From Bacteroidota bacterium (GTDB lineage: Bacteria; Bacteroidota; Bacteroidia; Bacteroidales; B18-G4), in contig JAHJRE010000110.1 in assembly GCA_018831055.1 (NCBI GenBank), positions 1 through 36,505 on the forward strand: a DNA stretch of 36,505 nt, in the 5' to 3' direction. The position numbers and the translations under genes were made by a program. This document shows positions 3,757 to 30,091 of this stretch, piece after piece. The notes under the pieces were generated by a model. It did no database searches. It was not told the origin of the DNA and worked only from the letters and a program-made list of their open reading frames with translations. Each line of letters opens with the position of its first letter. Position 1 is the stretch's first letter.

Positions 3757-4788
3757 TCACTTCCCCCTCACAACCAACTTAATAACCAACACCAAAATCA
3801 ACAATACTAAAATCCCCCCCGATAACCAGTATGCCCATATATTCACTATTCTCGATTGAGCATACATCATATAGTCTTCAAACATAAACGACATGGGGTC
3901 AACCTTCCATTCCACTTTATTGCCTTCCAGCTTCGCGGAATTGGTTTCCATGATGATCCCCGGCAGTTCCGCTTCCACGGTATAGCTTTCCATTAAAAGA
4001 ACCTCTATTAAAAAATGCACCTTTTTGTTCAATTCCTGAAATATGGGAGGTTCAATGTCATTTAACTTCTTAACCGCAGGATTTTTTGTCCATTCATAAT
4101 AAAGCTCAATGTAATTGTCGGGATGATCCCAGTTATTGTCCAGATAATGCTTAATGCTATCCTGGTATAATATGACATCCTGTGACAACAACTCCTGATC
4201 ATCAAGTCCTGCAATAGCTTTTTGCAGCACCTTGATGATCTCCCGGCTCACCACATCCTCAAAGTACTCGTTCGCCCTTTCATCAGCCGATTCAAGCCTG
4301 GCCGAGTCAACTTTATTAAGCGCAATCTTCTGACCACTGAGCCATAAAATATCCTCCTGATCAAGGTAATCCTGATAATCATACTCCCTGAAGGGATTGG
4401 CGGCTTTGATAACTTCCCGGTATTTCGGGTATGAATAAAAGAAACCGAACGACTTTCCAATGTCGAAGTGCCGGTACAATTGTTTCCTCCATCCTGTGTC
4501 GGCCGCAACCTCATCGTTCAGCTCCTTCGACTTCCTGAAAGTCTTTGAATAGGTAAGGGAAAAATTATTGCTCCGGGTAGTATCTTTACTGTACTCTTTT
4601 ATCCAGGTGGAATCAACAGGATAAGGCAGGTTCTTACTAAAAAAAACATCCGAAGAATCACCCGTGATGGTGAATATCCTTGTGAAGGAGCCATCTTCGT
4701 GTATTACTGTGGTTACGGTCACCTCTCTGCAGGATGCGAGTGAAAACAGAAGTATGACCAATATGCTGAAAATTTGTTTTGCTTTCAT
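3757..4788 (-). CDS. Hypothetical lipoprotein with C-terminal transmembrane anchor (343 aa), co-operonic with the ECF sigma/anti-sigma pair
   Basis: N-terminus MKAKQIFSILVILLFSLASC matches a lipoprotein signal with a lipobox-like cysteine. The C-terminus IWAYWLSGGILVLLILVLVIKLVVRGK is a hydrophobic helix. The gene starts 11 bp after the upstream ORF's stop on the same strand. Confidence 0.6.
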   Translation of the reverse strand: MKAKQIFSILVILLFSLASCREVTVTTVIHEDGSFTRIFTITGDSSDVFFSKNLPYPVDSTWIKEYSKDTTRSNNFSLTYSKTFRKSKELNDEVAADTGWRKQLYRHFDIGKSFGFFYSYPKYREVIKAANPFREYDYQDYLDQEDILWLSGQKIALNKVDSARLESADERANEYFEDVVSREIIKVLQKAIAGLDDQELLSQDVILYQDSIKHYLDNNWDHPDNYIELYYEWTKNPAVKKLNDIEPPIFQELNKKVHFLIEVLLMESYTVEAELPGIIMETNSAKLEGNKVEWKVDPMSFMFEDYMMYAQSRIVNIWAYWLSGGILVLLILVLVIKLVVRGK

Positions 4789-4799
4789 GGTAATAGATT

Positions 4800-5252
4800 T
4801 TAATTGTAATTATTTAAGGCTAACATCCTGGCTTTCTCTATTCTTCCCTTGACAAATCCCTCCGGTTCGTGTTCCTGCCCGGCAGCCATCATAACCTTTT
4901 TAACATCAGTATTGCTTAAAATGAACTCTAATCCTTTCAGCTGGCCGGATTTCTGAGAAAGCGAAGCATTCCTGTTTTCCTGCTGAATGACTTTGTCGAC
5001 AAAGATGTACTGCTCTATCCCAAATACAACCAACAGTGTAATGGATGCTGCAGCAAGAAATCTCACTGCCATAGAAATTGCCGTGCCATATCTCAGGATA
5101 AAACGGGGTGTTATTTCTTCCACCTCATCCTGAATCCCTTGCATTATGCTATCGGTCAGCTTCTCCGGGTTGTCCAGCACCGGATCCCTTTTCAGATTAC
5201 CAATGATTTTAACGTAAGCAGAATCATCGGCTATGTTTTTATTTCTGCTCAT
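4800..5252 (-). CDS. Putative anti-sigma factor (150 aa, single-pass membrane protein)
   Basis: Its start codon overlaps the ECF sigma stop by 4 bp (ATGA). It has a cytoplasmic N-terminus of about 65 aa and one transmembrane helix, AISMAVRFLAAASITLLVVFGI. Position and topology are typical of an ECF anti-sigma, but no diagnostic motif is present. Confidence 0.5.
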   Translation of the reverse strand: MSRNKNIADDSAYVKIIGNLKRDPVLDNPEKLTDSIMQGIQDEVEEITPRFILRYGTAISMAVRFLAAASITLLVVFGIEQYIFVDKVIQQENRNASLSQKSGQLKGLEFILSNTDVKKVMMAAGQEHEPEGFVKGRIEKARMLALNNYN

Positions 5253-5818
5253 TTGTTTTTCCTTTCACCGTTAAGTATATAGTTTAACTTTTCTTTTACT
5301 GCTTTCCTGGCATGATAAAGATTGCTTTTAACCTGTGTTTCGTCAATTTCCAGGATGGCTTCCACTTCTTCTGAACTCATTTCCTGGAGATCCCTCATTG
5401 CAAATACCAGCCGTTGCTTTTCAGGAAGTTTATCTGCCAGGAGTCTGATAATTTGTCCCAATTCTTTATTGTCCAGGATTAATTCCATTGAGTCTTCCTG
5501 CATCTGCTGTAGTTTATCTCCCAGATCATCGATCTTCATGGTATTGGCCCGCCGGATGGATCTGAACCTGTCAATAGCAGTATTTGTTACGATCCGGTAC
5601 ATCCAGGTGGTTAATTTCATTCGGGTATCATATTCACCTATTTTTCGCCATATCTTTATAAAACTTTCCTGGACGCTGTCCTTTGCTTCCTCCTCGTCGC
5701 AAAGTATCCTGAAGGCAAGGTTGTAAGCGTATTGCCGTTGTTCTTCGACAAGCTTCCGGAAAGCTTCCTGACTGCCGTTCTTTATTTCATTGATGATATC
5801 TCTGGTCACTATTTGCAT
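5249..5818 (-). CDS. RNA polymerase ECF-type sigma-70 factor (189 aa)
   Basis: The sigma-70 region 2 (...IKIWRKIGEYD...TWMYRIVTNTAIDRFRS...) and region 4 (...LPEKQRLVFAMRDLQEMSSEEVEAILEIDETQVKSNLYHARKAVKE...) have the ECF subfamily layout. Confidence 0.85.
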   Translation of the reverse strand: MQIVTRDIINEIKNGSQEAFRKLVEEQRQYAYNLAFRILCDEEEAKDSVQESFIKIWRKIGEYDTRMKLTTWMYRIVTNTAIDRFRSIRRANTMKIDDLGDKLQQMQEDSMELILDNKELGQIIRLLADKLPEKQRLVFAMRDLQEMSSEEVEAILEIDETQVKSNLYHARKAVKEKLNYILNGERKNK

Positions 5819-9046: not shown

Positions 9047-10111
9047 CTATTTGCCATACTCCAAACCATAACGGTTCAATATTTCGCTGTAAAGGGGCAA
9101 TTCTATCTTGCTGACCAAAACCGGATCAATTTCATGTATCAGGTCTTTATTGGTTGAAGCAAAAGAAAAATATTCCTTGGTATATGCGCTTGGTATCAAT
9201 AGAATTTTCTCTTCCAGGAATAAATGTTGTACCATGTACCTGAGTATGGCCTCATCGTATACAAAAGCCTGTAATATTTCTTTATTGACTGCATCCAGTC
9301 CTTTTCCAAGATCTTTCATGTTTTGTGATATGATACCGTATTCTTTCAGGAATTCTGCTGATGCCGAATTCTCAATGCTACCCACACTCACGCGTTGCAA
9401 ATCCTCCAGCCCCTTTACCGCTGATGATAAATTGTGTACCGTTAACGCTGAAGCAATGGCAGCAGTGAAACTGGATATCAAAACAATAGCCGTGAACATC
9501 CAGATTATGGAGATTATCCTGCCCATGATGGTTTTAGGTGTTTTATCCCCGTATCCCACCGTGGTCATTGTCACCGCCGACCACCAGATCCCATCACCAA
9601 GTCCCTTGATACCATCATTGAAATGATCTTTGTTTTTTCTCCTCTCAAGTAACCAGACTATGGTACCAAATATAACTATGATAAGAAAAAAAGCCGAGAC
9701 TATCCGAAGAAACTCCCATGACATCAATCCCCGGAAAATCGTAGTAAAAGTGCCTCCGGACTTTGCTTTCACCGCTATGGCCAGGTTGGTGACGTAAAAT
9801 GGTTGTGTGAAATAAAACTTCTTTATCCGTTCGGCAGTCACAGTCAATGGATTGATGCTAAGATCAACATCTCCATTCTCTATAGCCTGAAGTAACCCTC
9901 CCAGATCATATTCCCTGAATTCATAATCATAATGAAGATCCTCGGCTATTATTTTCCATAAATCAATAGATACTCCATTATATGTTTCACCATTTTTGAT
10001 TACAAACGGTGGCGCCTCCTTAATCCCTATTATCAGTTTCCTTTCCTGCGAATATCCTGAAAAACAACTAAAGATAACAGCGATGCCCAAAATCAAGACG
10101 TACCTTTTCAT
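9047..10111 (-). CDS. GluR0-like ligand-gated potassium channel: solute-binding lobe S1, then pore (M1–P–M2), then lobe S2
   Basis: It has a signal peptide. An SBP-family-3-like N-terminal lobe (KLIIGIKEAPPFVIK...GVSIDLW...) is followed by two hydrophobic helices flanking the K+ selectivity filter TMTTVGYGD, then a second binding-lobe segment. This is the split-SBP-plus-pore architecture of prokaryotic ionotropic glutamate receptor homologs. Confidence 0.72.
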   Translation of the reverse strand: MKRYVLILGIAVIFSCFSGYSQERKLIIGIKEAPPFVIKNGETYNGVSIDLWKIIAEDLHYDYEFREYDLGGLLQAIENGDVDLSINPLTVTAERIKKFYFTQPFYVTNLAIAVKAKSGGTFTTIFRGLMSWEFLRIVSAFFLIIVIFGTIVWLLERRKNKDHFNDGIKGLGDGIWWSAVTMTTVGYGDKTPKTIMGRIISIIWMFTAIVLISSFTAAIASALTVHNLSSAVKGLEDLQRVSVGSIENSASAEFLKEYGIISQNMKDLGKGLDAVNKEILQAFVYDEAILRYMVQHLFLEEKILLIPSAYTKEYFSFASTNKDLIHEIDPVLVSKIELPLYSEILNRYGLEYGK

Positions 10112-11781: not shown

Positions 11782-13473
11782 CTACCGGTGAATTTGCCCG
11801 AGATAAAACGATGGGCTCACACCGGTAACTTTTTTAAAGGCATTATAAAAAGTTACCCGGTTACTGAATCCCGCGTCGGAGGCAATGGCTTCAAGGGTAA
11901 GGTTTTCATGAGCATTTTCCGCGAAAAGCCTCAATACTTCATTTACACGGTACTCGTTGATCAGGGTATTGAAATTCCTGGAAAAGTGATTGTTGATCAG
12001 TCCTGACAAAACATTTTTATTGGTATTAAGCCGGGCCGCAAGGATATCCAGAGATAAACCAGGGTCAAGGTAGGCTTTTTCACTTTCAAGAACCGTCTGT
12101 AACCGGGAAATCAATTCCGTTCCGGCTTCATGATTGCATAAACCTGTCCTGGGTCTTCTTGATTTGCCAATCATCACCCCCCTTTCCACCAGATCCTGCT
12201 GCTTTTCAACCAGTAACCGGTGAGCTTTTACCAGTTTGTGGTTTCGCCACAAAAGCAGTATTAACAGAACCAACAAAGAAACAAGCAGGATGATCAGCAT
12301 GAGATTCCTGGAAAAATAGATCCTGTTCTTTTCTTCCAGGTTCCTGATCTCCCATTGTTTTTCATTGACCTCATGCCGGATCATCAATTGAGACAGTTCT
12401 GCTTCCCTTTCGCGGTGGTTCAGACTGTCGCTGATTTTCCGCTCAAGCTTGTAATATTTCAATGCCTGCAAAGGCTCACCGTTGGCCTCGTATGCCTCGG
12501 AAAGCACCTTTGCAATTTCCGCCTTATCTTCCGACATTTCACCCTTAACCGCCTGAACATAAGCCTGCAGTCCGGTTTCAATGGCTCTGACAGGTTGCCC
12601 CAGCTTCAGCCACACGTTGGCAATATTCTTGAGGGTTCCGGCTTGCCTTCCCGTGGCGTGGATATGCTCCATTACCGCCAGGGCCGAATCGTAATACATC
12701 AGAGCATTCGGGTATTGGCCCATTTTATAATATATCAAACCGTAGTTGTTGAGCCCCACCGCCAAATCATTAAGGTTTTTTGCTTTCCAGGAAATCATGA
12801 CGGAGCGCTCTGCATAATATAAAGCACTGTCGAATATTTCCTGCATCAGGTAAATATTGCTGATGTTCCCAAGAACAGAATACAGCAGGGATGAATCAGT
12901 CATATCACGGCAATAGGCGTATGCTTTGAAATAACACTTTAGAGCGGCCTCAAGGCTGTCGCTATTCATGTAAGTATTGCCGATATTATTGTAGTCAGAT
13001 GCAATCAATCGAATATCCCCGCTTTGTCTGTCTATCTCAAGTGATCGGATGAAATAATTCAATCCTGAACGATAATCACCCATTTGGGAATAAATGATCC
13101 CGATGTTTGCATACAAATCCGAAACACCGGCAGAATCCCCGGTCTCACGCATGAACATCAGAGCCTGGGAATAATAACCCAGGGCATTGGGGTACTCTCC
13201 CTTTACCAGGGCAGAAGTTCCCATCAGATGCTTTGCCCTGGCCAGTCCGCGTGAATAGCCCAGTTCATCTGAAAGTTTCTCTGCCTGCAGGGCCAATGCA
13301 TAAGTTGAGTCAGGATAGGAGAAGACAACCTGCCTTGCGTTATTTAAAATGGAGTTTATCCTTATCGTATCGTTGGAATTGACCGCTGTGGTTTCATTGG
13401 GTAAAGCGGCATTAAGGAAGGCGGAGGAGCCTGTCCATACGAAAATTATGAAAAAAACTATCCTATTCCGCAT
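11782..13473 (-). CDS. Membrane-anchored TPR-repeat / AraC-family HTH transcriptional regulator (563 aa)
   Basis: It has a signal peptide, a long TPR-like repeat region (recurring ...LG.Y..AL.YY..AL...) and a hydrophobic helix (LMLIILLVSLLVLLILLLW). The C-terminal AraC-type HTH reads ...LDPGLSLDILAARLNTNKNVLSGLIN...RVNEVLRLF...EAIASDAGFSNRVTFYNAFKKVTGVSPSFY. Confidence 0.75.
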   Translation of the reverse strand: MRNRIVFFIIFVWTGSSAFLNAALPNETTAVNSNDTIRINSILNNARQVVFSYPDSTYALALQAEKLSDELGYSRGLARAKHLMGTSALVKGEYPNALGYYSQALMFMRETGDSAGVSDLYANIGIIYSQMGDYRSGLNYFIRSLEIDRQSGDIRLIASDYNNIGNTYMNSDSLEAALKCYFKAYAYCRDMTDSSLLYSVLGNISNIYLMQEIFDSALYYAERSVMISWKAKNLNDLAVGLNNYGLIYYKMGQYPNALMYYDSALAVMEHIHATGRQAGTLKNIANVWLKLGQPVRAIETGLQAYVQAVKGEMSEDKAEIAKVLSEAYEANGEPLQALKYYKLERKISDSLNHREREAELSQLMIRHEVNEKQWEIRNLEEKNRIYFSRNLMLIILLVSLLVLLILLLWRNHKLVKAHRLLVEKQQDLVERGVMIGKSRRPRTGLCNHEAGTELISRLQTVLESEKAYLDPGLSLDILAARLNTNKNVLSGLINNHFSRNFNTLINEYRVNEVLRLFAENAHENLTLEAIASDAGFSNRVTFYNAFKKVTGVSPSFYLGQIHR

Positions 13474-13507: not shown

Positions 13508-13540
13508 ACCACAATAGACACTTAGGACACATTAGTTTTT
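13508..13540 (-). promoter_or_regulatory. Copy 1 of the ctaatgtgt-n-cta-nn-gtg-n-ctattgtggt motif, about 35 bp upstream of the TPR–AraC regulator 11782-13473
   Basis: The minus strand reads aaaaactaatgtgtcctaagtgtctattgtggt, followed by ttcaaaaacccctatctttccgtaaaatttaaccc and then the ATG. It is in sense orientation relative to the regulator gene. Confidence 0.5.
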
Positions 13541-13557: not shown

Positions 13558-16500
13558 CTAATTTATTAATACTCTATGAACCTGCATCTTTTCAGTCATA
13601 TGGATGCTAACAAAATAAATCCCCGAAGGCAAACCAAGCGTTTCCTGCTGATTGTGACTTCCGGTCAATGTGAACCTCAGCAACTCCCTTCCTGAAATAT
13701 CCGTCACAGAAGCCTCTCCCCTTTCACCATCCGGATTCAGGATATAGATGATGTCATTGTAATGAAATACCTGCAAAGGATGCATCATTACCGCGTCTTC
13801 TATCCCGGTTATATCCTTAAAATGCAGGAAGAAACGGCCCGTTCCGCTTTCATCCACCCAGGTGGTGTAACGCTCATTTTTCAGGTTGGTGAAGGTGTTT
13901 GTCTGGCGGTCTTCAAGGAAGAGGGGGATGCTTTCCAATTGCATTGTCTCGGCTGCAAACTCAATCTGCCGGGCCTCCGGAACATCTATACCAACATTGA
14001 CAACTATGGATTCTATGTTTTCCGGGGGCAGGGCCTGTATGGCAAAATCAACACCATTGTCTTCGATAAGCCGGGTATAGAGAGCGAGTTCAGGATTTCC
14101 CTTCATTTTTCCGACATCGTAGGATGGATCCAGGCCGGGCGTCATACCTGAAACTAATAAAATCTCAGTTTTGTTATATTGTTCTCCGGTACTTGCATAT
14201 AATCGCAAGCCCGGGTGATCGCTTTCAGTTTCATTTTTATAATAGGCGGATGTACCGTGTTTACGTATGCTCGTATTGAAATTCAGTGTTGCCCCGTTAC
14301 TGGCGGCCATAACCATAAAACCCTGGCCGGGTGAGGCGTAGAATGCAGCATCAGCGTTTGCAACCGCATCGTAATCGGCATTGCTTTTCCCGTCCCAGCC
14401 GGCGCTTTCATCCCAAAGGTAAATGGCTTCATATGAATCATTCAATGCAGCAGTATTTTGTGTCAGGAAATTATTGGTAGCATCTGCTCCGGTGTTAATG
14501 GCAATCGTTGAGCTGAAAGGATTACCAACAAGATTGGCACCCTCAAATGAACCTCCGGTTTTGGTGAGATTAATGCTCTGATTGGAAGTATGGAGGGGAC
14601 CGGATAAGGTAATGGTTTTATCTGTAGTCACATAATTTACTGCATATCCTTTGCAATCCGTAAAACCTTCTTCGTCCATTAACGTATTGGTTCCGCTGCC
14701 ATCCGCCCCATTCAGAATATCTATCCAGTAACCGGTATAAGAACCTGATGTATAGCTCTCTTCCCAGCGGTAGAATTGGTTGGATGAACTTCCGGGTGTC
14801 CCCAGCCCAAGATTTAATGCATCAAAATTTCCGCTGGTATTCACAGGATCTGAAATATAATGCCATCTGTCGTGGGTAAGAAAGCGCTCAGCTTTAATAC
14901 TTCCGTCGACTGTCCCGGTTAAGATCAGTGATCCCGTGCCTGTAGCATCCGATTCAAGGGTAAAATCACCTGGGCTGCTCAGGATATTATTATAAAGGTT
15001 ATGTCCGATAGACAACTGGCCACCGGGTTCCAGATCAAGGGAAGAGAGCGGGAGCATATACAACGACTTTGTTATGGTAAGTTTGTTCCCCGGATAAATA
15101 TTCGTATGGCCTATATTAAATACCGAACCATGAATGGTATGTGAACCCGAATAATTAAAGGTGAGGTCAACTCCGCTTCCTACCACCAGGTGATTACATG
15201 CAATGGCTGCACCAATGGTCGGATCACTCCCGCTTTGATTATGCACACCCACGTTATCTGTTGAAGTTGGTACACTCTCCCGGCTCCAGTTTGCGGCTGT
15301 GCTCCAATTGCTGGATGAGGTGTTGAGCCAGGTGTTGAAGGCGGTGGAGGTGGTCCAGGCGGGGCTATTCGTCAATGTCGCATCATTTGTGTTGCTAGTC
15401 AAATCCTGTAAAGCACTTCCTGAGTAATTGTCAAAGGTATAATAAGCAACCAGCCCTGCTTCATCGCCTTCCAGAGTTTTACACATGTTATCCCGGATCT
15501 CTTCTTCTGTGCGGACATCCGACCAAATACGAAGTTCGTCAAGCTTTCCATTGAAATATTGTTCATATCCATCTCGTTTCGCAATAATTATATTCCTGGA
15601 TAAAATACTTAAACTAACATTGGTAGAACCGCTCAGAACTCCATCAAAATAAAGATAAGCGGTTGTGCCATTATAGACGCCAGCTATATGGTGCCAGTTG
15701 TTATCATTCACTCCAAGCCATATTTCTGCTATACCACTCCCATTTCCAATACCGAAAATTATCGCAAGACTATTTGCAATTGTTAAAAAAAACCAATTAC
15801 TAGAAACATCTCTTCCATTATCTATAATTCCGTTAAAAGTTGATGTTGTTCCATCCATCTGCATCCAAAACTCAACAGTAAAATTTGAATTTTGAAGAGA
15901 AGCATTTGCCGGAATGGTTCCGTAATGTGATGATCCGTTAAAATCCAGGCAGTATTTCGGTCCGAAAAAAGCCGGGGAAGCTGACCACTCATTGCCATTC
16001 ATGTTTGTTAATGTACCATTAAGATTGTTGGAAGTAACATCATCCAGTGAGGTTCCGCTGGATTCATTAAAGTTATAATATGCAACCAGGCCGCTCTCTG
16101 AACCGGTAAATTCCTGGTACATTCCTGCCTGAATTTGTTCCTCCGTTTTTACAAAATCCCAAACCCGTACCTCATCGATCTTACCATTCCAGTAATATTG
16201 TGATACCCAAGGGTAAACACCTATTTTAAAAGACCCTGCATTTGCAATGGTACCTGAAAATGTTGAAGGCTGTGATCCGACATTTTTACCGTTTATATAT
16301 AGGATAATACTACCTCCACTGGTCCAGGTCATGGCCACATGCTGCCATAATCCGGTTGTCAGGGTTCCTGCCTGTATATATTTTTGTATACCGCTTGCAT
16401 CCCAGACTGACCCATATAATAATGTACCCGATGTTTCAAGGTCGAAAGCGGTTGAAGCCGGCAGCCATTCTACATTTGATTTTCCCATAATGGTGTGCGG

Positions 16501-16683
16501 TGCGGTTAAATCATCAGGGTAGATCCAGGCTTCAATTGTAAATGAAGTGAAATCAAAAACATCATCATCTGCAACCTCCACGTAATCATTTGCCCCATCA
16601 AAATCCAACGCGTTGTTCTGCGCCATCAAATGGGTGTTCAAACCAATAAACAATAGAATCAATAAAAAGACTTTGGCTTTCAT
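13558..16683 (-). CDS. T9SS-secreted LamG (concanavalin A-like lectin) multidomain protein (1041 aa)
   Basis: A signal peptide is followed by at least two LamG-type modules (LDFDGANDYVEV...EAWIYPD...DEVRVWDFVKTEEQI and LDFNGSSHYGT...DELRIWSDVRTEEEIRDNM). The C-terminal Por/T9SS sorting domain reads ...LPSGIYFVSIHMTEKMQVHRVLIN. Confidence 0.75.
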   Translation of the reverse strand: MKAKVFLLILLFIGLNTHLMAQNNALDFDGANDYVEVADDDVFDFTSFTIEAWIYPDDLTAPHTIMGKSNVEWLPASTAFDLETSGTLLYGSVWDASGIQKYIQAGTLTTGLWQHVAMTWTSGGSIILYINGKNVGSQPSTFSGTIANAGSFKIGVYPWVSQYYWNGKIDEVRVWDFVKTEEQIQAGMYQEFTGSESGLVAYYNFNESSGTSLDDVTSNNLNGTLTNMNGNEWSASPAFFGPKYCLDFNGSSHYGTIPANASLQNSNFTVEFWMQMDGTTSTFNGIIDNGRDVSSNWFFLTIANSLAIIFGIGNGSGIAEIWLGVNDNNWHHIAGVYNGTTAYLYFDGVLSGSTNVSLSILSRNIIIAKRDGYEQYFNGKLDELRIWSDVRTEEEIRDNMCKTLEGDEAGLVAYYTFDNYSGSALQDLTSNTNDATLTNSPAWTTSTAFNTWLNTSSSNWSTAANWSRESVPTSTDNVGVHNQSGSDPTIGAAIACNHLVVGSGVDLTFNYSGSHTIHGSVFNIGHTNIYPGNKLTITKSLYMLPLSSLDLEPGGQLSIGHNLYNNILSSPGDFTLESDATGTGSLILTGTVDGSIKAERFLTHDRWHYISDPVNTSGNFDALNLGLGTPGSSSNQFYRWEESYTSGSYTGYWIDILNGADGSGTNTLMDEEGFTDCKGYAVNYVTTDKTITLSGPLHTSNQSINLTKTGGSFEGANLVGNPFSSTIAINTGADATNNFLTQNTAALNDSYEAIYLWDESAGWDGKSNADYDAVANADAAFYASPGQGFMVMAASNGATLNFNTSIRKHGTSAYYKNETESDHPGLRLYASTGEQYNKTEILLVSGMTPGLDPSYDVGKMKGNPELALYTRLIEDNGVDFAIQALPPENIESIVVNVGIDVPEARQIEFAAETMQLESIPLFLEDRQTNTFTNLKNERYTTWVDESGTGRFFLHFKDITGIEDAVMMHPLQVFHYNDIIYILNPDGERGEASVTDISGRELLRFTLTGSHNQQETLGLPSGIYFVSIHMTEKMQVHRVLIN

Positions 16684-16792
16684 AAGTATTGATTTTAATA
16701 AAATTTGAGATAAAAGACCTGAAGCCGGATACTTGCAACCTGTAACCTGCAGCGCAAAAAATTAAGTGAATAGCCATCCCCCATGGCATTTG

Positions 16793-16870
16793 GCTTAATG
16801 ACTAATCTGGTTTGGCTTTCCGTCATAAAAGGAATCAGTATGTGACCCAAAAATATGAGAGAATAAAAAT
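16793..16870 (-). promoter_or_regulatory. Conserved 5' element upstream of LamG paralog 1 (copy A)
   Basis: The 34-nt core gcttaatgactaatctggtttggctttccgtcat (16793-16826) is identical at 31 of 34 positions to 20364-20397 upstream of the paralog. Weaker similarity continues through a shared tgacccaa block. The element lies about 105-190 bp upstream of the ATG at 16683. Confidence 0.55.
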
Positions 16871-17056
16871 AGGTAATTTTGTGTGGCAAATCAAGAGAAA
16901 ACTTTCATATATTATTAACATGAAATAAGGCTCCTAAATAACATTCCCAAGCAAGCATTATGTGAGGCAATTCTCCATTGAGTTTTTTACTTTAATCCGC
17001 TAACCAAACTACTCTGATTATTCTTGATAAATCAGGAAACGGGTAGTGATTAATTT

Positions 17057-17125
17057 ATTAATCTATCCACAATAGTCACAATAAAACACAGTAATAGACT
17101 TAAAAAACTAATGTGTGCTATTGTG
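17057..17125. repeat. Perfect 17-bp inverted repeat (ccacaatagtcacaata ... tattgtgactattgtgg) with a 35-nt spacer; the right arm is copy 2 of the ctattgtggt motif
   Basis: The arm 17057-17073 is the exact reverse complement of 17109-17125. The repeat starts about 24 nt past the stop of LamG paralog 2 (which ends at 17149). It lies about 375 bp upstream of LamG paralog 1. Confidence 0.6.
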
Positions 17126-17148
17126 ACTATTGTGGTGAAATACAATCA

Positions 17149-20100
17149 CTAATACGTCACCAACACCTTACGGCTCACAACTCCCTCGCTTGCCCGGAAA
17201 CACACCACATACAAGCCTCCGGGAAGGTTATGGGAATAGCTTTGTTCAGATTCTCCATCCAAAATGCCCGATAACACAGGTTTGCAGGTCATATCGAATA
17301 CGGCAAACTGCCCGGTAAGCTGTTCAGGATTGCTTATATGCAACGTATTACCACCGTTCCAGGCTAAAATATTTATAACCGAACCGGTAAACTGTTTTTC
17401 TCCGATCCCCACCGTGCTGAAATGCAGCAGGAAGCGCCCGGGATCATCGCCTTCGGTTGCGGTAAAGCTGTAAATGGGTTCATTGGTCAGGTTATGGGTA
17501 GTCTGGGTTTGGAGGTCGGTTAAGAAAACCGGAAGATCAGGATCAAGATCATCCGTTCCTTCAATCCGGATGTAAAATTGTGTTCCCTCATTTTTTATAA
17601 AATATAAGGGAATCTGTATGCTTTCACTAAGCTCCGGCAGACCGTTGGTCGATACTGCCTTCCCTTCGGTTTGCGTATAAAACTGAGGTGCATACCCCGG
17701 CAGATACCAGCAATCATAAGCAATATCATAACTCTGGCTTGCTTCAGGTATAAAACGGATCACCGTTTCCTGGGTAGTATGGTACTCAACATCATGAACC
17801 GTAAGCTTTAACGTGTTGACTCCTGTTGATTTATACCAAACATCCGTTTCATGACTTCTTAATGCCTTCGGGATGATCAGGCTTCCTGTCTGGTTTTCTG
17901 CCACATACACCATAAACCCTTGCATTGGCGGGATCATCTCTCCATTATCTATATCCGTATAGGAAGCGCTGCTTTCCTGCCAGATCTTTGCCGTGCTGCC
18001 TATATTCTGCTGCTGCCAATTGAGATCCCATTCAATGTCCCATGTCCAAATAACACCACACGGAAATGGATTTCCCAGCAAATGCCACCCTCTGTTCTCC
18101 GAAGTAAGGGTGTGTGTGAGGTTAGTGATGCTTACATTGGAATTATTCCAGGTTCCGCTGAATGACTTGGTCTGATCTGATCCGTAAGCCACCAGATATC
18201 CCTTTCCCACCGTGAAGGTGCTTTCAAAACTGCTGTTCCAGCTTCCATCTCCGGCCTTGGTGTTGATCCAGTAATTCGTGGGTTCATCCCAACTGTAAAA
18301 GTCCTCATTTACTGTGGGGGGATCGGATACAAAACCCGGCTGAATGGCCTGAGCTGAAACGGGAGAAGAAAGAAAATGCCAGCCATGATTAGCATCGGTC
18401 CATTGTGCAATATAGCGCTGAATTTCATAACTTCCGGATCCTGAATACGTACCGTCAGCAACAACGGAACCTGTTCCTGATGATGTACTTTCCAGAAGGA
18501 AAGTTCCCTCATTGACAATACCACTGTATATGTCGATCATCCCTCCCGGCCTGACCGTTAAAGTTTTTCCTGAGGTAATAACCGCCTTATCAACACGCAT
18601 TCCACAATTGTCGGGTATATCAAAATCTGAGTTTACCAGAAAGTTTTCATCCACATCCAATGGATTGGAAAAGGTAATATCCGCACTGGCGCCTATCACC
18701 AGGTTCCGGCATTCGATGTTCCAGTCATAGGATGGTTGTACCGAGGCCCCCCCGTAATAATAAACCCCGGTGTTATGGCCGGTTGTGGGGTATGATCCGA
18801 GGCTCCAGTTGGAGGTGGTACGCCAGTTGCTGTTGGTTGTATTCAACCAGGTGTTGAAGGCGGAAGAAGCTGTCCAGGATGGAATGGTATAAGAACCTCC
18901 ACCACTTCCCTGCCAGGTGCCGTCAATATCATTACCCGAGATATCCTGCAGGCTTGTCCCGGTAACATTATCAAATGTATAATAAGCAGCCAGGTTGCTT
19001 TCCTGGGTTACATCGAGCATCCGGCACATATTTTCACGAAGCTCCAATGGTGTTCTTACATCATTCCATATCCTGAGTTCATCAATGGAACCATTCATCA
19101 GACGGCCACCCGGTTCACCGGGTGAATCCCCGATCCTTGGATTTTGTGAAGAGGACAAGATCGATGTCGAATGGCTCGAGGAATACACTTCAACACCGTT
19201 AACATAAAGCCGGACATCAGATCCGTCGTAAGTAGCTGCGACATGCTGCCAGGTATTCAACGTCAATACCCCGGTGGCAATAGTGACTGCCCAGTTATAA
19301 CCCCCTGAATACGACATCGTAAAATCAAGGTCACCTCCAGCCCCTCCAAACCGGAATACATAACCCTCACTGTTCGCTCCCCCCCAATAATCATTTCCGA
19401 TGATCGTGTTCTTAAAATATTCATCCTTGAAATCAGTCGGGTATATCCAGGCTTCAATTGAAATATTGGTACCGGTAATATTTAATGCACTTTCTAATGC
19501 TACGTAGTCGTCAGTCCCATCAAAACCCAGGCACTGCTTTGGCCCGAAAAGTGCCGGGGATGTCTGCCATTCATTACCGCTCATATTTGTGAGGGTACCA
19601 TTAAAACTCCCTTTCGTGTCAATTGCAGTAGTTCCGGTGGTCTCGTTAAGCTTATAGTAAGCGACAAGATCCGAACCCGGACTGATGATCTCCCGGTACA
19701 TGTTCTGCCGGATCTCATCCTGGGTCCTGGCATCGTTCCATATCCTTACTTCATCCATCAATCCGTCAAAATATCTTTCGGTGCCCGATCCACCAATTTC
19801 CATAGTACTCATACCATTGGTAATATTCCCGGTATGGGCAACGGTTTTCTCCAGGATACCATTCACATATATTCTCAGATTCGATCCATCATAGGTACCT
19901 GCAATGTGATACCATTTGTTTACTAGCATTTGAGTTGTGCCGGTGCATTTTTTATTTCCGGAGCCTGTCGTAACTACAAATTGGGGAATATCATTGTCTT
20001 CCAGTTCGCCAGGATGGCTATCCCCAATCCTGAGTAAGGATGAAGCATCGTTGTGCCCGGCAACATTTGATATCCTGGCATCCGGAACCGGATCATTGAA

Positions 20101-20274
20101 TGAATGCGGATAAACCCAGGCTTCTATTGTGATTCCTGAAAATCCATTGGAACTTAAGCCTGTAATGCTTATATAATCATTATCGCCGGCAAAGTCGAGT
20201 AAGTTGTTCTGTGCCATGGAATTAATCCCTAAAATCCAAAGCAAAACAATTGACAATAATATTTTAGTCTTCAT
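17149..20274 (-). CDS. T9SS-secreted LamG multidomain protein, paralog of 13558-16683 (also 1041 aa)
   Basis: It has the same architecture and is collinear with its paralog, for example IDELRIWNDVRTPLELRENMCRML...AAYYTFDNVTGTSLQD...SAFNTWLNTTNSNW against LDELRIWSDVRTEEEIRDNMCKTL...VAYYTFDNYSGSALQD...TAFNTWLNTSSSNW. The T9SS C-terminal domain is ...GGLYVVCFRASEGVVSRKVLVTY. Confidence 0.75.
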   Translation of the reverse strand: MKTKILLSIVLLWILGINSMAQNNLLDFAGDNDYISITGLSSNGFSGITIEAWVYPHSFNDPVPDARISNVAGHNDASSLLRIGDSHPGELEDNDIPQFVVTTGSGNKKCTGTTQMLVNKWYHIAGTYDGSNLRIYVNGILEKTVAHTGNITNGMSTMEIGGSGTERYFDGLMDEVRIWNDARTQDEIRQNMYREIISPGSDLVAYYKLNETTGTTAIDTKGSFNGTLTNMSGNEWQTSPALFGPKQCLGFDGTDDYVALESALNITGTNISIEAWIYPTDFKDEYFKNTIIGNDYWGGANSEGYVFRFGGAGGDLDFTMSYSGGYNWAVTIATGVLTLNTWQHVAATYDGSDVRLYVNGVEVYSSSHSTSILSSSQNPRIGDSPGEPGGRLMNGSIDELRIWNDVRTPLELRENMCRMLDVTQESNLAAYYTFDNVTGTSLQDISGNDIDGTWQGSGGGSYTIPSWTASSAFNTWLNTTNSNWRTTSNWSLGSYPTTGHNTGVYYYGGASVQPSYDWNIECRNLVIGASADITFSNPLDVDENFLVNSDFDIPDNCGMRVDKAVITSGKTLTVRPGGMIDIYSGIVNEGTFLLESTSSGTGSVVADGTYSGSGSYEIQRYIAQWTDANHGWHFLSSPVSAQAIQPGFVSDPPTVNEDFYSWDEPTNYWINTKAGDGSWNSSFESTFTVGKGYLVAYGSDQTKSFSGTWNNSNVSITNLTHTLTSENRGWHLLGNPFPCGVIWTWDIEWDLNWQQQNIGSTAKIWQESSASYTDIDNGEMIPPMQGFMVYVAENQTGSLIIPKALRSHETDVWYKSTGVNTLKLTVHDVEYHTTQETVIRFIPEASQSYDIAYDCWYLPGYAPQFYTQTEGKAVSTNGLPELSESIQIPLYFIKNEGTQFYIRIEGTDDLDPDLPVFLTDLQTQTTHNLTNEPIYSFTATEGDDPGRFLLHFSTVGIGEKQFTGSVINILAWNGGNTLHISNPEQLTGQFAVFDMTCKPVLSGILDGESEQSYSHNLPGGLYVVCFRASEGVVSRKVLVTY

Positions 20275-20363
20275 TCTATATTATGTTTAAGTATATAAAA
20301 ATTGTAAAACCCTTAGGATAAAAGTTAACACGATACACCCAGGACAGGGCAATGCAGAAAATA

Positions 20364-20420
20364 GCTTAATGACTGATCTGGCTTGGCTTTCTGTCATTTA
20401 ATTAATCACAATTGACCCAA
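20364..20420 (-). promoter_or_regulatory. Conserved 5' element upstream of LamG paralog 2 (copy B)
   Basis: The sequence gcttaatgactgatctggcttggctttctgtcat (20364-20397) is the second copy of the copy-A element. It is followed by a conserved tgacccaa block and lies about 90-145 bp upstream of the ATG at 20274. Confidence 0.55.
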
Positions 20421-20596
20421 TTATATGAAGTTATAAAAATATATCATTTTTTAGATTAAATCAAGATTTTTTTCATGGAATAGACTCTTTCAATAAGCCA
20501 AAAATTTCAAATAAAACTTTCTATTGCATTTCTGCTTAATCAGTAAAGACAGCCAACTCTATAAATAAGAACCAGAAAAATAACGTATAATGCAAT

Positions 20597-20625
20597 CTAA
20601 TGTGTACTACTGTGACTATTGTGGT
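20597..20625 (+). promoter_or_regulatory. Copy 3 of the ctaatgtgt...ctattgtggt motif, 65-95 bp upstream of the TPR–AraC regulator 20719-22437
   Basis: The sequence ctaatgtgtactactgtgactattgtggt matches copy 2 at 27 of 29 positions. It is in sense orientation relative to the plus-strand regulator gene. Confidence 0.5.
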
Positions 20626-20718
20626 AAAAAAACCTTAAACCAATCCCATAGTATTTATAACTTTGGCAAGATTGGTAAATCTTAACAACATTTGGGATCA
20701 AAAGAAAAATCTCAGAGT

Positions 20719-22437
20719 ATGCTTAAAAGATTGTTGCACCTGTTAACCTTACTGCTTTTTGCTGGCATTCAAACGATTACATCTCAGAACAACACAGATG
20801 AAAGGCTATTCAGCCAACTTGATTCCCTGGAAGGGGAAGAGTTCAGGAAGAGTGTTGCTATTGTTCTTGACTCCATTTCCAGAATACCCGATTATCAATC
20901 TAAAAAAGCATACGTTAATTCTATCTTTACTATAACAGCTCAAAAGGATGAAATTGCACATATCCAGTCGTTGGTGCATACCGCCAGACTTACCGGCTCT
21001 TCCTCCAAAAAGCTTTTTGACAAGGCCTATCAAATTGCTTTCAAGCATAATCGTATCGACGATATGTGCCTTGTAGAACATGCCAGGGGATTGCATTATA
21101 TAGCAGAAAAAAAGTTCGACTCCGCTATGATCCATATTCTCAGGTACCGGGATATGACCCCGGAAGATACTAAAGGCGAAGGCTACAGAAATATCATTAA
21201 CCTCCTGGGAGATATTTATTACTATGCCGGATTGTATAACCAGGCAAGGGATATTTATTTTAACTTATACACACAATATAAAACAGATAATATCTGGAAC
21301 TTCTACAGGCCATACGTTATGATGAACAATCTCGGACAAATTGCCCTGTACTCCGGCGATATGTCTGAAGCAAAAAAATGGTTTATCCAATCGCTTGAAC
21401 GGGCAGACCAATATCTGCATACTTCCTACCGCAATAATACAATGGCCTATACGAGAATCAAACTTGCCGAAACAGAACTGGAATCGGGGAATCTGGACAG
21501 TGCCCGGATGCTGCTTGACGAAGTTGACAAATATCCTGAAACTACCCTTCATGAAGATGTTTTTCAGGAATATCTTTTCTGCAAAACAAAAATGCTGCTT
21601 GCTCAGGGAAAAGCAAACGAAGCCTTTAACACAGCCCATCTGCTGAAACCATCCGACTCTGTGTCATTTAACCAATATCGTTTTATTCCTGACATATATC
21701 TGCTGCTTTCGGATATTTACCTCCAGCAAAATGATTCTGCTTTGGCCTTTACGCATCTGCAGAAATATCAGAAAATCTCCGACTCCCTGCATAAAAGCGA
21801 AAACATCGCACAGTCAATGATTATCCTTGCCAACCGGAACCATGAACTTACCCGGAACGAACTGAAGTCAACAAAACAACGAAACCGGACACTCTACGGT
21901 GGACTGGTGGTTCTTTTAACCGTACTTCTCATTGTACTGTTCCAATACAGAAGCTTGTACCGGTCCAAACTTAAACTGGTCAGAAAATCGATGGAGAATA
22001 TTGGTGGTTTTGATTTACCTGAATTGAAAAAGGAAGCAGAACAATTACAAAACCATACAAATGAAACTGATTTACAAGAACAAAGAAAACTAATCAATAG
22101 GTTACGGGAATACATGGAATCCCAAAAACCATATTTGGATCCCGGGCTTAATATCCAGGAAACGGCAAAACAATTAACCACCAACCGGACTTACTTATCA
22201 CGAGCCATCAATACTCAACTGGGAACAACTTTTCCTAACTTCATCAACAACTACCGTATCCAGGAAGCCATCCGTCTCATCACGACCGGGTTTACCAAAA
22301 ACCACACTCAGGAAGCACTCGCCAAAAGATCGGGCTTTGCCAGCCGCACAGTCTTTACCTCCGCCTTTAAAAAAATCACCGGAGTAGTACCCTCGTTCTT
22401 TATTGCAAAGTATAAAGATGTTGAGAGGGAAGGGTGA
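20719..22437 (+). CDS. Membrane-anchored TPR / AraC-family HTH regulator, paralog of 11782-13473
   Basis: It has a signal peptide (MLKRLLHLLTLLLFAGIQTITSQ), a TPR-like region and a transmembrane helix (LYGGLVVLLTVLLIVLFQY). The C-terminal AraC HTH reads ...YLDPGLNIQETAKQLTTNRTYLSRAIN...RIQEAIRLI...EALAKRSGFASRTVFTSAFKKITGVVPSFF. An alternative upstream ATG lies at 20692. Confidence 0.75.
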   Translation: MLKRLLHLLTLLLFAGIQTITSQNNTDERLFSQLDSLEGEEFRKSVAIVLDSISRIPDYQSKKAYVNSIFTITAQKDEIAHIQSLVHTARLTGSSSKKLFDKAYQIAFKHNRIDDMCLVEHARGLHYIAEKKFDSAMIHILRYRDMTPEDTKGEGYRNIINLLGDIYYYAGLYNQARDIYFNLYTQYKTDNIWNFYRPYVMMNNLGQIALYSGDMSEAKKWFIQSLERADQYLHTSYRNNTMAYTRIKLAETELESGNLDSARMLLDEVDKYPETTLHEDVFQEYLFCKTKMLLAQGKANEAFNTAHLLKPSDSVSFNQYRFIPDIYLLLSDIYLQQNDSALAFTHLQKYQKISDSLHKSENIAQSMIILANRNHELTRNELKSTKQRNRTLYGGLVVLLTVLLIVLFQYRSLYRSKLKLVRKSMENIGGFDLPELKKEAEQLQNHTNETDLQEQRKLINRLREYMESQKPYLDPGLNIQETAKQLTTNRTYLSRAINTQLGTTFPNFINNYRIQEAIRLITTGFTKNHTQEALAKRSGFASRTVFTSAFKKITGVVPSFFIAKYKDVEREG

Positions 22438-30062: not shown

Positions 30063-30091
30063 AAATTAATCCTTCCCCATACTCAAATTCA

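What the first reader, a model, noticed from the sequence alone, without database searches (positions are those of the whole stretch)
16793..16870. Noncoding 5' element conserved at 31 of 34 nt upstream of both LamG paralogs although the proteins have diverged extensively
The sequence gcttaatgactaatctggtttggctttccgtcat (16793-16826) matches gcttaatgactgatctggcttggctttctgtcat (20364-20397). Both lie at a similar distance, roughly 90-140 bp, 5' of their respective start codons. A downstream tgacccaa block is also shared. The element begins atgac and ends gtcat, a 5-bp inverted repeat spanning 29 nt. In the gene sense it starts with ATGAC(A/G)GAAAGCCAA and opens a short ORF (MTESQ(A/T)R(S/L)VIK...) whose sequence diverges immediately after the conserved block. 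That argues for a DNA or RNA element rather than a conserved peptide. Noncoding sequence far better conserved than the adjacent coding sequence implies purifying selection. The candidates are a shared operator, a promoter, or a 5'-UTR structure.
Basis: seen in the sequence. Interest (0 to 1): 0.6.

Follow-up and report, generated by a model that had tools for sequence, protein, structure and literature searches.

The report
Shared promoter-leader cassette of LamG paralogs
Two anciently duplicated secreted-protein genes in an uncultured Bacteroidetes genome carry the same ~104-bp promoter-plus-leader cassette, and the reported 34-mer is its best-kept part; it is most likely an ordinary, lineage-specific regulator-binding site that keeps both genes under common control.

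Summary
The two 34-mers match at 31/34. They are the only copies in the window, and none is expected by chance. The LamG/T9SS proteins behind them are about 32-36% identical, and their synonymous sites are saturated, so this is not an undecayed recent duplication.

The 34-mer is the 3' end of a larger block: 16793-16896 and 20364-20466, 79/104 identical, with one 1-nt indel. The block also carries Bacteroidetes-type promoter boxes: TTG-N20-TATTTTTA, and TATTTTTG/TATAATTG. That places the 34-mer at about +17 to +67 of an unusually long leader of 139-176 nt.

A second conserved island, a triple 'TGTG' repeat, lies 200-280 nt further upstream. It also precedes both TPR-AraC regulator genes.

Neither element occurs in orthologous loci (B orthologs at 52-68% amino-acid identity), nor in the public genome and metagenome collections. 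Those orthologous loci share a different palindrome instead.

There is no support for an RNA structure: the fold is weak, nothing covaries and Rfam gives no hit. The upstream ORF (uORF) is no longer than chance allows.

Best reading: a lineage-specific protein-binding operator just downstream of a shared promoter (confidence about 0.4). A leader-RNA element is the main rival. Interest is modest.

The parts
16793..16826 (-). 34-mer, copy A (ATGACGGAAAGCCAAACCAGATTAGTCATTAAGC); imperfect dyad ATGACnGA-N13-TYnGTCAT
20364..20397 (-). 34-mer, copy B (ATGACAGAAAGCCAAGCCAGATCAGTCATTAAGC)
16793..16896 (-). Conserved promoter-leader block upstream of LamG-A (104 nt; 79/104 identical to the B block, one 1-nt indel)
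20364..20466 (-). Conserved promoter-leader block upstream of LamG-B (103 nt)
16888..16896 (-). TCTTGATTT, contains the candidate -33 TTG (A); B counterpart at 20458-20466
   Evidence: identical in both copies
16863..16871 (-). TATTTTTAT, candidate -7 box P1 (TTG-N20-TATTTTTA) (A); B counterpart at 20433-20441
   Evidence: 9/9 conserved, spacing conserved
16848..16855 (-). TATTTTTG, perfect TAnnTTTG -7 box P2 (A); B counterpart TATAATTG at 20418-20425 (5/6)
16843..16850 (-). TTGGGTCA block (A); B counterpart at 20413-20420; overlaps the predicted P2 start site
16695..16826 (-). uORF of 43 codons starting at the ATG of the 34-mer (A); B counterpart 20287-20397, 36 codons; not significant
17108..17136 (+). 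TGTG element (CTAATGTGTGCTATTGTGACTATTGTGGT; three direct repeats of about 9-10 bp, AWTGTGnCT). Forms a 27-nt-arm inverted pair with 17066-17094
17066..17094 (-). TGTG element, copy pointing toward LamG-A
20597..20625 (+). TGTG element between LamG-B and reg2, pointing toward reg2
13508..13535 (-). TGTG element (28 nt, 1-nt deletion), 34 nt upstream of the reg1 ATG, pointing toward reg1
20666..20685 (+). Palindrome GCAAGATTGGTAAATCTTAA next to the reg2 promoter; 20/20 conserved in orthologous loci L006, L007, L009
13558..16683 (-). LamG-A, 1041 aa, two Laminin_G_3 domains plus a T9SS type A sorting domain
17149..20274 (-). LamG-B, 1041 aa, paralog of A (32-36% identity)
11782..13473 (-). reg1: TPR + transmembrane segment + AraC-type HTH_18 regulator
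20719..22437 (+). reg2: TPR + transmembrane segment + AraC-type HTH_18 regulator, divergent from LamG-B; this arrangement is conserved in orthologous loci

Best explanation
The 34-mer is the best-conserved, 3'-terminal part of a lineage-specific cis-regulatory cassette of about 104 bp that sits in front of both LamG/T9SS paralogs. Its role is to place the two anciently diverged genes under the same control. The upstream part of the cassette supplies a Bacteroidetes sigma-A-type promoter: TTG-N20-TATTTTTA, followed by TATTTTTG/TATAATTG. The 34-mer follows at a fixed distance of 20-21 nt after the second -7 box, at about +17 to +67 relative to the predicted start sites.

I think the 34-mer most likely acts at the DNA level, as the binding site (operator) of a sequence-specific protein sitting just downstream of the start site. 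The site would span about three helical turns and have an imperfect dyad, ATGACnGA-N13-TYnGTCAT. Occupancy would gate transcription of both genes together.

Shown: the conservation, its extent and rigid spacing, the promoter-like boxes, the absence from orthologs, and the weakness of the RNA folding.

Inferred: the transcription start sites, that a protein binds, which protein it is (possibly one of the two locus-encoded TPR-AraC regulators, possibly another factor), and the sign of regulation.
For: (1) The conservation is island-like. The block is 79/104 identical with a single 1-nt indel, and the 34-mer is 31/34. The flanking leader and the upstream spacer are unalignable. The coding sequence is saturated at synonymous sites.
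(2) Differences outside the 34-mer run 6 transitions to 15 transversions, as expected at saturation. They cluster in short patches between invariant boxes, which is a footprint pattern.
(3) Promoter boxes that fit the Bacteroidetes consensus are conserved in sequence and spacing immediately upstream. The consensus is -33 TTG and -7 TAnnTTTG spanning -12 to -5 (PMC9723704).
(4) All 34 positions are conserved, including the would-be hairpin loop. The predicted RNA hairpin is marginal, at -3.6 and -4.8 kcal/mol with z = -0.4 and -1.6. That pattern suits sequence readout by a protein better than a structure.
(5) The 34-mer is a GC-richer island (41-44% GC) in a 17-30% GC surrounding.
(6) The locus encodes two AraC-type DNA-binding regulators. 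Linkage of regulator and LamG gene is conserved: it is seen directly in L005-L010 and inferred from shared contig lengths in at least 8 further cases.
(7) The element is conserved within this genome but absent from orthologous loci and from 596 Gb of genomes plus the metagenome collection. This is what a fast-evolving, genome-specific factor/site pair would show.
Against: There is no binding data and no mapped transcription start site.

AraC-family activators normally bind upstream of or over the -35/-33 region, not downstream of the start site. If the local regulators bind here they would be acting atypically, as repressors or roadblocks, or else the binder is an unknown protein.

Two other conserved elements are better placed to be the regulators' sites. 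One is the TGTG triple repeat upstream of all four genes. The other is the palindrome conserved across genomes next to reg2.

The dyad is short, and 10-13% of random 34-mers have one.

The three substitutions are all compatible with an RNA hairpin: G-U versus G-C, an internal-loop position, and a loop position. The predicted location is transcribed, so an RNA-level role is not excluded.

There are only two copies and no orthologs, so no covariation or turnover analysis is possible. Within the 104-nt block, 31/34 is only modestly above the block average (P about 0.01 per window at 74% identity).
Confidence: 0.4

Rival explanations
1. The element acts as RNA in the 5' leader. The 34-mer is transcribed as part of a 139-176-nt leader. 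It works either as a small hairpin (AUGAC-n-GA / UY-a-GUCAU) presenting a conserved 13-nt loop (AAGCCAARCCAGA), or as a single-stranded landing site for an sRNA or RNA-binding protein. Either way it would control stability, elongation or translation of both LamG mRNAs.
For: The 34-mer lies downstream of the only conserved promoter-like boxes. The predicted leaders are 5-6 times the median 5' UTR reported for Bacteroidetes, which is 24-32 nt (PMC9723704). All three substitutions are compatible with the hairpin: position 23 U/C pairs with G7 as G-U or G-C, position 6 sits in a 1x1 internal loop, and position 16 sits in the loop (structures). A second mini-hairpin, GGUCA/UGAUU, has conserved arms. 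Its variable loop contains the only indel, and its G-U pairs exist only on the sense strand.
Against: The folding energies are marginal and no better than shuffles: -3.6 and -4.8 kcal/mol, z = -0.4 and -1.6. The whole-leader folds differ between A and B (z = +1.0 and -1.05). RNAalifold gives -4 kcal/mol with a covariation term of zero. Rfam gives no match at the gathering threshold or at E <= 5. The rest of the leader is not conserved. With only two sequences, covariation cannot be demonstrated.
Confidence: 0.25
2. The element is an upstream activator site for a weak promoter located downstream. The real LamG promoters would be the poor -7-like boxes TAATTTTT (A) and TAACTTTT (B) that lie between the 34-mer and the ATG. 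The 34-mer, at about -41 to -82, would then be a classical AraC-type activator site of 2 x 17 bp.
For: -7-like boxes scoring 5/6 exist 28 nt (A) and 36 nt (B) downstream of the 34-mer. They would give ordinary leaders of about 68 and 40 nt. A 34-bp site matches the footprint of a dimer of two-HTH AraC-family domains (established knowledge of AraI1-I2). The neighbouring regulators carry HTH_18. Activator-dependent promoters typically have weak core elements.
Against: The spacing between the 34-mer and these boxes differs by 8 nt between A and B, and sequence homology stops exactly at the end of the 34-mer. Spacing to the upstream boxes, in contrast, is fixed to within 1 nt. Both downstream boxes lack the conserved terminal G. 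This model also leaves unexplained why 70 nt of promoter-like sequence upstream of the 34-mer is conserved.
Confidence: 0.1
3. The similarity has no function of its own. It would be the residue of a later copy event, such as gene conversion or promoter swapping, or of a dispersed short repeat that landed in front of both paralogs and has not yet decayed.
For: The element is absent from all orthologous loci, although the B orthologs (52-68% identity) are much closer to B than A is. The B-reg2 intergenic region is 417 nt, against 147-237 nt in the orthologs. All 5 differences in the two best-conserved islands are transitions, as expected at low divergence (P = 0.004-0.08). This genome does carry other short dispersed repeats: a 21-nt exact match between 16731-16751 and 30012-30032.
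Against: A recent copy should decay uniformly. Instead, near-perfect islands alternate with positions that are saturated (6 transitions to 15 transversions), and the regions between the islands are unalignable. That requires constraint on the islands whatever their origin. Both copies lie at the same position relative to paralogous genes. No terminal repeats or target duplications were seen. No copies were found in plasmid or phage collections, or in the genome and metagenome collections.
Confidence: 0.12
4. The element is the start of a translated upstream ORF (leader peptide MTESQxRxVIK...). Translation of this ORF, which ends 11-12 nt before the LamG start codon, would couple to or gate translation of the main ORF.
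For: An ATG-initiated ORF of 43 codons (A) and 36 codons (B) starts at the first base of the 34-mer. In both genes it stops 11-12 nt before the main ATG.
Against: ORFs of this length arise in about 24% of shuffled leaders for each gene. Only the first 11 codons are similar. The changes are 1 synonymous to 2 nonsynonymous, and 10 of 11 third-codon positions are unchanged, which points to nucleotide-level rather than peptide-level constraint. The peptides share nothing further along.
Confidence: 0.05

Closest known systems
AraC/XylS-family operator sites (e.g. araI1-I2, two 17-bp half-sites bound by a dimer of two-HTH domains)
   Same: The length of about 34 bp fits. AraC-type (HTH_18) regulators are encoded on both sides of the locus, and regulator-LamG linkage is conserved in related genomes. 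A distal repeat element (TGTG) plus a proximal site is loosely reminiscent of AraC O2/I1 looping.
   Different: The symmetry is a weak inverted dyad, not direct repeats. The element lies downstream of the conserved promoter boxes rather than over the -35/-33 region. The regulators here are membrane-anchored TPR sensors and are uncharacterised. No binding has been shown.
Bacteroidetes sigma-A promoter (-33 TTG / -7 TAnnTTTG; PMC9723704, PMC7366714)
   Same: The conserved block contains TTG-N20-TATTTTTA in both copies, plus TATTTTTG (A) and TATAATTG (B).
   Different: These boxes lie upstream of the 34-mer. The 34-mer itself contains no such motif, so it is not the promoter.
Structured 5'-leader cis-regulatory RNAs of Bacteroidetes (Rfam families; structured 5' transcribed regions in Flavobacterium psychrophilum, PMC9723704)
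   Same: It is predicted to be transcribed at the start of an unusually long leader. A small hairpin is possible, and the three substitutions are compatible with it.
   Different: There is no Rfam hit, no thermodynamic signal, no covariation, and no conservation outside this genome.
Target sites of dCas12f-sigmaE RNA-guided transcription in Bacteroidetes (PMC12259090)
   Same: These too are short, genome-specific sequences repeated in intergenic regions upstream of genes in Bacteroidetes, absent from orthologous regions elsewhere. An ECF sigma gene is present in the window (5249-5818).
   Different: No Cas12f-like protein or guide RNA was found in the window. The ORFs downstream of the sigma gene are 150 and 343 aa with no family match. 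No match of 14 nt or longer to the block exists elsewhere in the window. Known targets are about 14 nt and lie upstream of susCD or two-component loci.
Divergent regulator/target intergenic operators (the palindrome TTAAGATTGGTAAATCTTAA of the reg2 family, found here)
   Same: It belongs to the same locus family and is also a conserved noncoding element between the TPR-AraC regulator and the LamG gene.
   Different: The palindrome is conserved across genomes (20/20 in L006, L007, L009; a covarying version in L005) and sits next to the regulator promoter. The 34-mer is confined to this genome and sits next to the LamG promoter.

Membership tests
AraC/XylS-type operator | A cognate AraC-family (HTH_18/HTH_AraC) regulator is encoded in the locus | tested here: met
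   reg1 (11782-13473) and reg2 (20719-22437) carry HTH_18, with E = 1e-14 and 2e-13. Orthologous loci keep the regulator next to LamG.
AraC/XylS-type operator | Two repeated half-sites about 17-21 bp apart | tested here: inconclusive
   There is only an imperfect dyad, ATGACnGA-N13-TYnGTCAT (7/8 in B, 6/8 in A). 10-13% of random 34-mers have an inverted repeat of at least 5 bp. A direct repeat AAGCCAAA spaced 22 bp apart occurs in A only.
AraC/XylS-type operator | The site lies upstream of or overlapping the -35/-33 element of the regulated promoter | tested here: not met
   Relative to the conserved promoter boxes, the 34-mer lies at +17 to +67. The feature is met only if weak, non-conserved downstream boxes are used, and their spacing differs by 8 nt between A and B.
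AraC/XylS-type operator | Demonstrated binding of the regulator | not testable with these tools
   Needs EMSA, footprinting or DAP-seq.
Bacteroidetes sigma-A promoter | -33 TTG and -7 TAnnTTTG with a spacer of about 19-21 nt, inside the element | tested here: not met
   There is no such motif within the 34-mer. The motifs lie 20-60 nt upstream of it, within the same conserved block.
Curated cis-regulatory RNA family (Rfam) | Match to a covariance model | tested here: not met
   0 hits at the gathering threshold for the whole window. At E <= 5 there is nothing over either 34-mer; only generic miRNA-hairpin hits appear on the TGTG inverted pair.
Structured leader RNA (generic) | A fold more stable than shuffled sequence, shared by both copies | tested here: not met
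   Energies are -3.6 and -4.8 kcal/mol, z = -0.4 and -1.6. The leader folds differ between A and B. The consensus fold is -4 kcal/mol.
Structured leader RNA (generic) | Compensatory base-pair changes | tested here: inconclusive
   0 of 10 predicted pairs show double changes. There is one G-U versus G-C change by inspection. Only two sequences exist.
Leader peptide / uORF | Peptide conserved beyond the nucleotide conservation; ORF longer than chance | tested here: not met
   Only 11 codons are shared, with 1 synonymous and 2 nonsynonymous changes. The probability of the ORF length is about 0.24 for each gene.
Dispersed repeat / MITE | Many copies in unrelated contexts, with terminal inverted repeats and target-site duplications | tested here: not met
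   There are only two copies, both upstream of paralogous genes. No true copies were found in the genome, metagenome, plasmid or phage collections. No terminal repeats were seen by inspection. The rest of the source genome could not be searched.
dCas12f-sigmaE RNA-guided transcription target | A linked rpoE-dcas12f locus and a guide RNA matching the site over about 14 nt | tested here: not met
   No Cas12f-like ORF lies next to the ECF sigma gene. The longest matches to the block elsewhere in the window are 12-13 nt, inside coding sequence. Only 36.5 kb of the genome was searchable.

The most novel reading that the evidence does not exclude
The 34-mer is a genome-specific address sequence read by a trans-acting RNA. 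Two forms are conceivable. It could be a target site for an RNA-guided transcription system of the dCas12f-sigmaE kind recently described in Bacteroidetes. Or it could be the seed-binding site of an sRNA that co-ordinates T9SS LamG cargo paralogs. Either would explain why the sequence is near-identical at two promoters within one genome yet absent from orthologous loci in every other genome searched.
Probability: 0.05. Interest if true: 0.6.

Novelty: new member of a known kind. Interest (0 to 1): 0.25.

Why it matters
If the reading is right, this is a clean natural example of regulatory rewiring. Two paralogs that diverged to about a third amino-acid identity are kept in one regulon by a young, shared promoter/operator cassette. 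That cassette has displaced or supplemented the ancestral palindromic operator still found in related genomes. It also gives concrete, testable sites (the 34-mer, the TGTG repeat and the palindrome) for an uncharacterised but widespread family of membrane-anchored TPR-AraC one-component regulators linked to T9SS LamG surface proteins in Bacteroidales. Beyond that it is an ordinary cis-regulatory element in an uncultured organism, with no evidence of a new mechanism.

Tried and rejected
(1) Recent duplication. Rejected: third codon positions are 33% identical, four-fold sites 30.6% identical, and the best coding 34-nt window is 28/34.

(2) Conservation in orthologs. I looked in four A-homolog loci (L001-L004) and six B-ortholog loci (L005-L010). 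There is no match at up to 11 mismatches and no significant local alignment apart from the unrelated reg2 palindrome.

(3) Further copies elsewhere. I scanned genome contigs and metagenome contigs with the core pattern GAAAGCCAANCCAGATNAGTC. Each gave 3 hits, all chance matches inside coding sequence with unrelated flanks. The source genome is not in either collection, so its other contigs could not be searched.

(4) Extending the contig or finding strain variants. The other assemblies found (L017, L018, L021; SRR6514730, ERZ27247117) are 100% identical to the window. One look-up found nothing.

(5) Rfam at the gathering threshold and at E <= 5. Nothing lies over the element.

(6) RNA folding of the 34-mers and the leaders on both strands, plus RNAalifold. 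No signal.

(7) uORF significance by shuffling. Not significant.

(8) Tandem LamG paralogs in other genomes (L019, L020). They are in operon-like arrays with gaps of 68-82 nt, so there are no comparable paralog promoters to compare.

(9) The L005 inverted repeat TGTCAGAAT-GTACCA-ATTCTGACA at first looked like a 34-mer relative. Alignment shows it is the L005 version of the reg2 palindrome.

(10) Similarity between the 34-mer and the TGTG element (TGACTAATCTGG versus TGACTATTGTGG, 10/12). My own post hoc estimate gives P about 0.17, so it is not significant.

(11) Plasmid and phage collections. No match.

(12) dCas12f-type system in the window. Not found.

(13) Literature search for TPR-AraC/LamG/T9SS regulation. 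Nothing relevant.
Full report
**Setting.** The window comes from a metagenome-assembled 'Bacteroidetes bacterium'; the exact proteins are on a 54,239-bp NCBI contig. The locus reads as follows.
- reg1, 11782-13473, minus strand.
- LamG-A, 13558-16683, minus strand.
- LamG-B, 17149-20274, minus strand.
- reg2, 20719-22437, plus strand.

A and B are both 1041 aa, with two Laminin_G_3 domains and a T9SS type A sorting domain. reg1 and reg2 have a signal or transmembrane segment, TPR repeats, a second transmembrane segment and a C-terminal AraC-type HTH_18 domain. They look like membrane-anchored one-component regulators.

**Check of the observation.** The two 34-mers are at the stated coordinates on the gene-sense (minus) strand and match at 31/34. 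They are the only matches in the window at up to 3 mismatches, with 0 expected, and remain the only ones at up to 11 mismatches. The tgacccaa block and the ATGAC/GTCAT inverted repeat are present. The distances to the start codons are 109-143 nt (A) and 89-123 nt (B).

A and B are 32% identical by BLASTP and 36% over 977 aligned codons. Third codon positions are 33% identical. Four-fold degenerate sites at identical residues are 30.6% identical, against 25% expected at random. No 34-nt window in the 3-kb codon alignment exceeds 28/34. The noncoding match is therefore better than anything in the coding sequence, and the duplication is ancient.

**What the conserved unit really is.** An anchored alignment of the two upstream regions shows two islands of similarity in otherwise unalignable sequence.

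*Island 1* is a 104/103-nt block, 16793-16896 and 20364-20466. It is 79/104 identical with one 1-nt indel, and its last 34 nt are the reported element. In gene sense it reads: TCTTGATTT - 16 nt - TATTTTTAT - 4 nt - TCATAT(TT/AA)TTGGGTCA - 5/4 nt - TGATT - 6 nt - the 34-mer. Outside the 34-mer the block is 48/70 identical. The differences are bunched in short patches and run 6 transitions to 15 transversions, as expected at saturation. Inside the 34-mer the three differences are all transitions.

*Island 2* is a 'TGTG element', CTAATGTGTnCTAnTGTGACTATTGTGGT, made of three direct repeats of about 9-10 bp (AWTGTGnCT). It lies 201 nt (B) and 283 nt (A) upstream of the 34-mer and is 27/29 identical between the two. 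It has four copies in the window:
- one upstream of reg1 (13508-13535);
- one upstream of reg2 (20597-20625), in the same orientation relative to its regulator gene;
- an inverted pair with 27-nt arms (17066-17094 and 17108-17136) just after the stop codon of B.

The sequence between the islands shows no significant local similarity (p = 0.64), and neither do the leaders downstream of the 34-mer (p = 0.55). Homology stops exactly at the end of the 34-mer.

**Promoter context.** The Bacteroidetes sigma-A consensus is a -33 TTG and a -7 box TAnnTTTG spanning -12 to -5. Median 5' UTRs are 24-32 nt (PMC9723704). In both copies the block contains TTG-N20-TATTTTTA, with sequence and spacing fully conserved. 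Sixteen nt further on lies TATTTTTG in A, a perfect TAnnTTTG and the only perfect one in the whole A upstream region, and TATAATTG in B. The predicted start sites are 16859 or 16843 for A and 20429 or 20413 for B. That places the 34-mer at +33/+34 to +66/+67, or at +17/+18 to +50/+51, and makes the leaders 139-176 nt long. Weak -7-like boxes also exist downstream of the 34-mer (TAATTTTT, TAACTTTT), but their distance from it differs by 8 nt between A and B and they lie in non-homologous sequence. I therefore regard the 34-mer as tied to the upstream promoter.

**Comparative evidence.** The closest homologs of A are only 43-46% identical. Their loci (L001-L004) have no adjacent regulator and no similar upstream sequence. 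B has closer orthologs, at 68, 56, 54 and 52% identity. All of them (L005-L010) have a divergently transcribed TPR-HTH_18 regulator next door. reg2-family regulators and LamG homologs also share contigs of identical length in at least eight further cases (this is an inference). The regulator-LamG pair is therefore a conserved module.

None of these loci contains the 34-mer, the 104-nt block or the TGTG element. What they share with the window is a different element, the palindrome TTAAGATTGGTAAATCTTAA. It is 20/20 in L006, L007 and L009, and 18/20 in the window at 20666-20685, next to the regulator's -7 box. In L005 it appears as a version with covarying arms. The orthologous intergenic regions are 147-237 nt, against 417 nt in the window.

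Scans of 596 Gb of species-representative genomes and of the metagenome collection with the 21-nt core found only six chance hits, all inside coding sequence. The plasmid and phage collections gave nothing. Other assemblies of the same organism are 100% identical, so there is no population variation to exploit.

The element is thus specific to this lineage. Since B is far closer to its orthologs than to A, the simplest history is that the cassette arose, or was copied between the two paralog promoters, after the lineage split from those relatives. That is long after the A/B duplication. The island pattern shows that unconstrained positions have since saturated while the islands were held.

**RNA, peptide or DNA?**

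*RNA.* The 34-mer alone folds at -3.6 (A) and -4.8 (B) kcal/mol, with z = -0.4 and -1.6. The antisense strand is no better. The whole-leader folds differ between A and B. RNAalifold gives -4 kcal/mol with no covariation, and Rfam gives nothing. In favour of RNA: the three substitutions are all hairpin-compatible; a second small stem (GGUCA/UGAUU) has conserved arms around a variable loop that holds the indel; and the leaders are unusually long.

*Peptide.* A uORF starts at the first base of the 34-mer and ends 11-12 nt before the main ATG in both genes, at 43 and 36 codons. Such lengths occur in about 24% of shuffled leaders for each gene. Only 11 codons are shared, with 1 synonymous and 2 nonsynonymous changes.

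*DNA.* All 34 positions are conserved, including the would-be loop. The spacing to the promoter boxes is rigid. The GC content is locally raised (41-44% against 17-30%). The length is about three helical turns, and DNA-binding regulators are encoded in the locus. All of this fits a protein-binding site. The dyad itself is not significant.

An operator downstream of the start site is atypical for AraC-type activators. The TGTG repeat, present at all four transcription units, and the cross-genome palindrome are at least as good candidates for the local regulators. The identity of the binder is therefore open.

**Verdict.** The 34-mer belongs to a shared, lineage-specific promoter-leader cassette. 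My estimates are:
- a protein operator just downstream of the promoter, about 0.4;
- a leader-RNA element, about 0.25;
- a non-functional remnant of a later copy event, about 0.12;
- an upstream activator site for a downstream promoter, about 0.1;
- a translated uORF, about 0.05.

It matches no curated family. It is a new instance of a familiar kind of element, of modest general interest. It is useful mainly as a handle on an uncharacterised TPR-AraC/LamG-T9SS module.

Noticed in passing
window 20666-20685; L006 1940-1959; L007/L008 2042-2061; L009 7897-7916; L010 1735-1754; L005 about 2322-2345: The 20-bp palindrome TTAAGATTGGTAAATCTTAA is perfectly conserved next to the promoter of reg2-family TPR-AraC regulators, in genomes whose LamG orthologs are only 52-56% identical. 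In L006 and L007 it lies 44 nt upstream of a conserved -7-like box of the LamG gene. L005 has a version with covarying arms, TGTCAGAAT-GTACCA-ATTCTGACA. It is probably the ancestral operator of this regulator/LamG module.
   Followed up: partly
window 13508-13535, 17066-17094, 17108-17136, 20597-20625: The 'TGTG element' consists of three direct repeats of about 9-10 bp (AWTGTGnCT). It lies upstream of both regulator genes in the same relative orientation. It also occurs as an inverted pair with 27-nt arms right after the LamG-B stop codon, where it could double as a terminator-like hairpin. It is absent from orthologous loci.
   Followed up: partly
window 16731-16751 and 30006-30063: There is a 21-nt exact match (TGCAGGTTACAGGTTGCAAGT, three GCAGGTT-type heptamers) between the LamG-A leader and one arm of a long heptamer-repeat palindrome lying between two convergent genes. 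The match is in the same RNA sense in both places. It suggests short dispersed repeats in this genome.
   Followed up: partly
window 16811-16820 versus 16672-16681: The 34-mer of copy A shares the 10-mer GAAAGCCAAA with the first codons of LamG-A (ATGAAAGCCAAAG). The L005 ortholog also starts ATGAAAGCCA. This may be chance.
   Followed up: no
L002 2774-3001; L006 5233-5460; L007 5336-5563; L019 7476-7757; L020 8724-8951: Small genes of 75-93 aa (PID_CTERM, PF28310, where a Pfam hit is on record) lie directly downstream of LamG homologs in several other genomes. No such gene follows LamG-A or LamG-B in the window.
   Followed up: no
window 33454-36413: Adjacent genes carry Lant_dehydr_N and Lant_dehydr_C domains (690 and 296 aa). 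This points to a lanthipeptide- or thiopeptide-type dehydratase locus at the window edge.
   Followed up: no
window 9047-10111: A 354-aa protein combines a periplasmic solute-binding domain (SBP_bac_3 / Lig_chan-Glu_bd) with an ion-channel pore. This is a prokaryotic glutamate-receptor-like channel.
   Followed up: no
window 3757-5818: An ECF sigma factor gene (5249-5818) is followed by ORFs of 150 aa and 343 aa that match nothing in Pfam, NCBIfam or PDB sequences. They are presumably an anti-sigma module. They are not Cas12f-like by size or by any match.
   Followed up: partly
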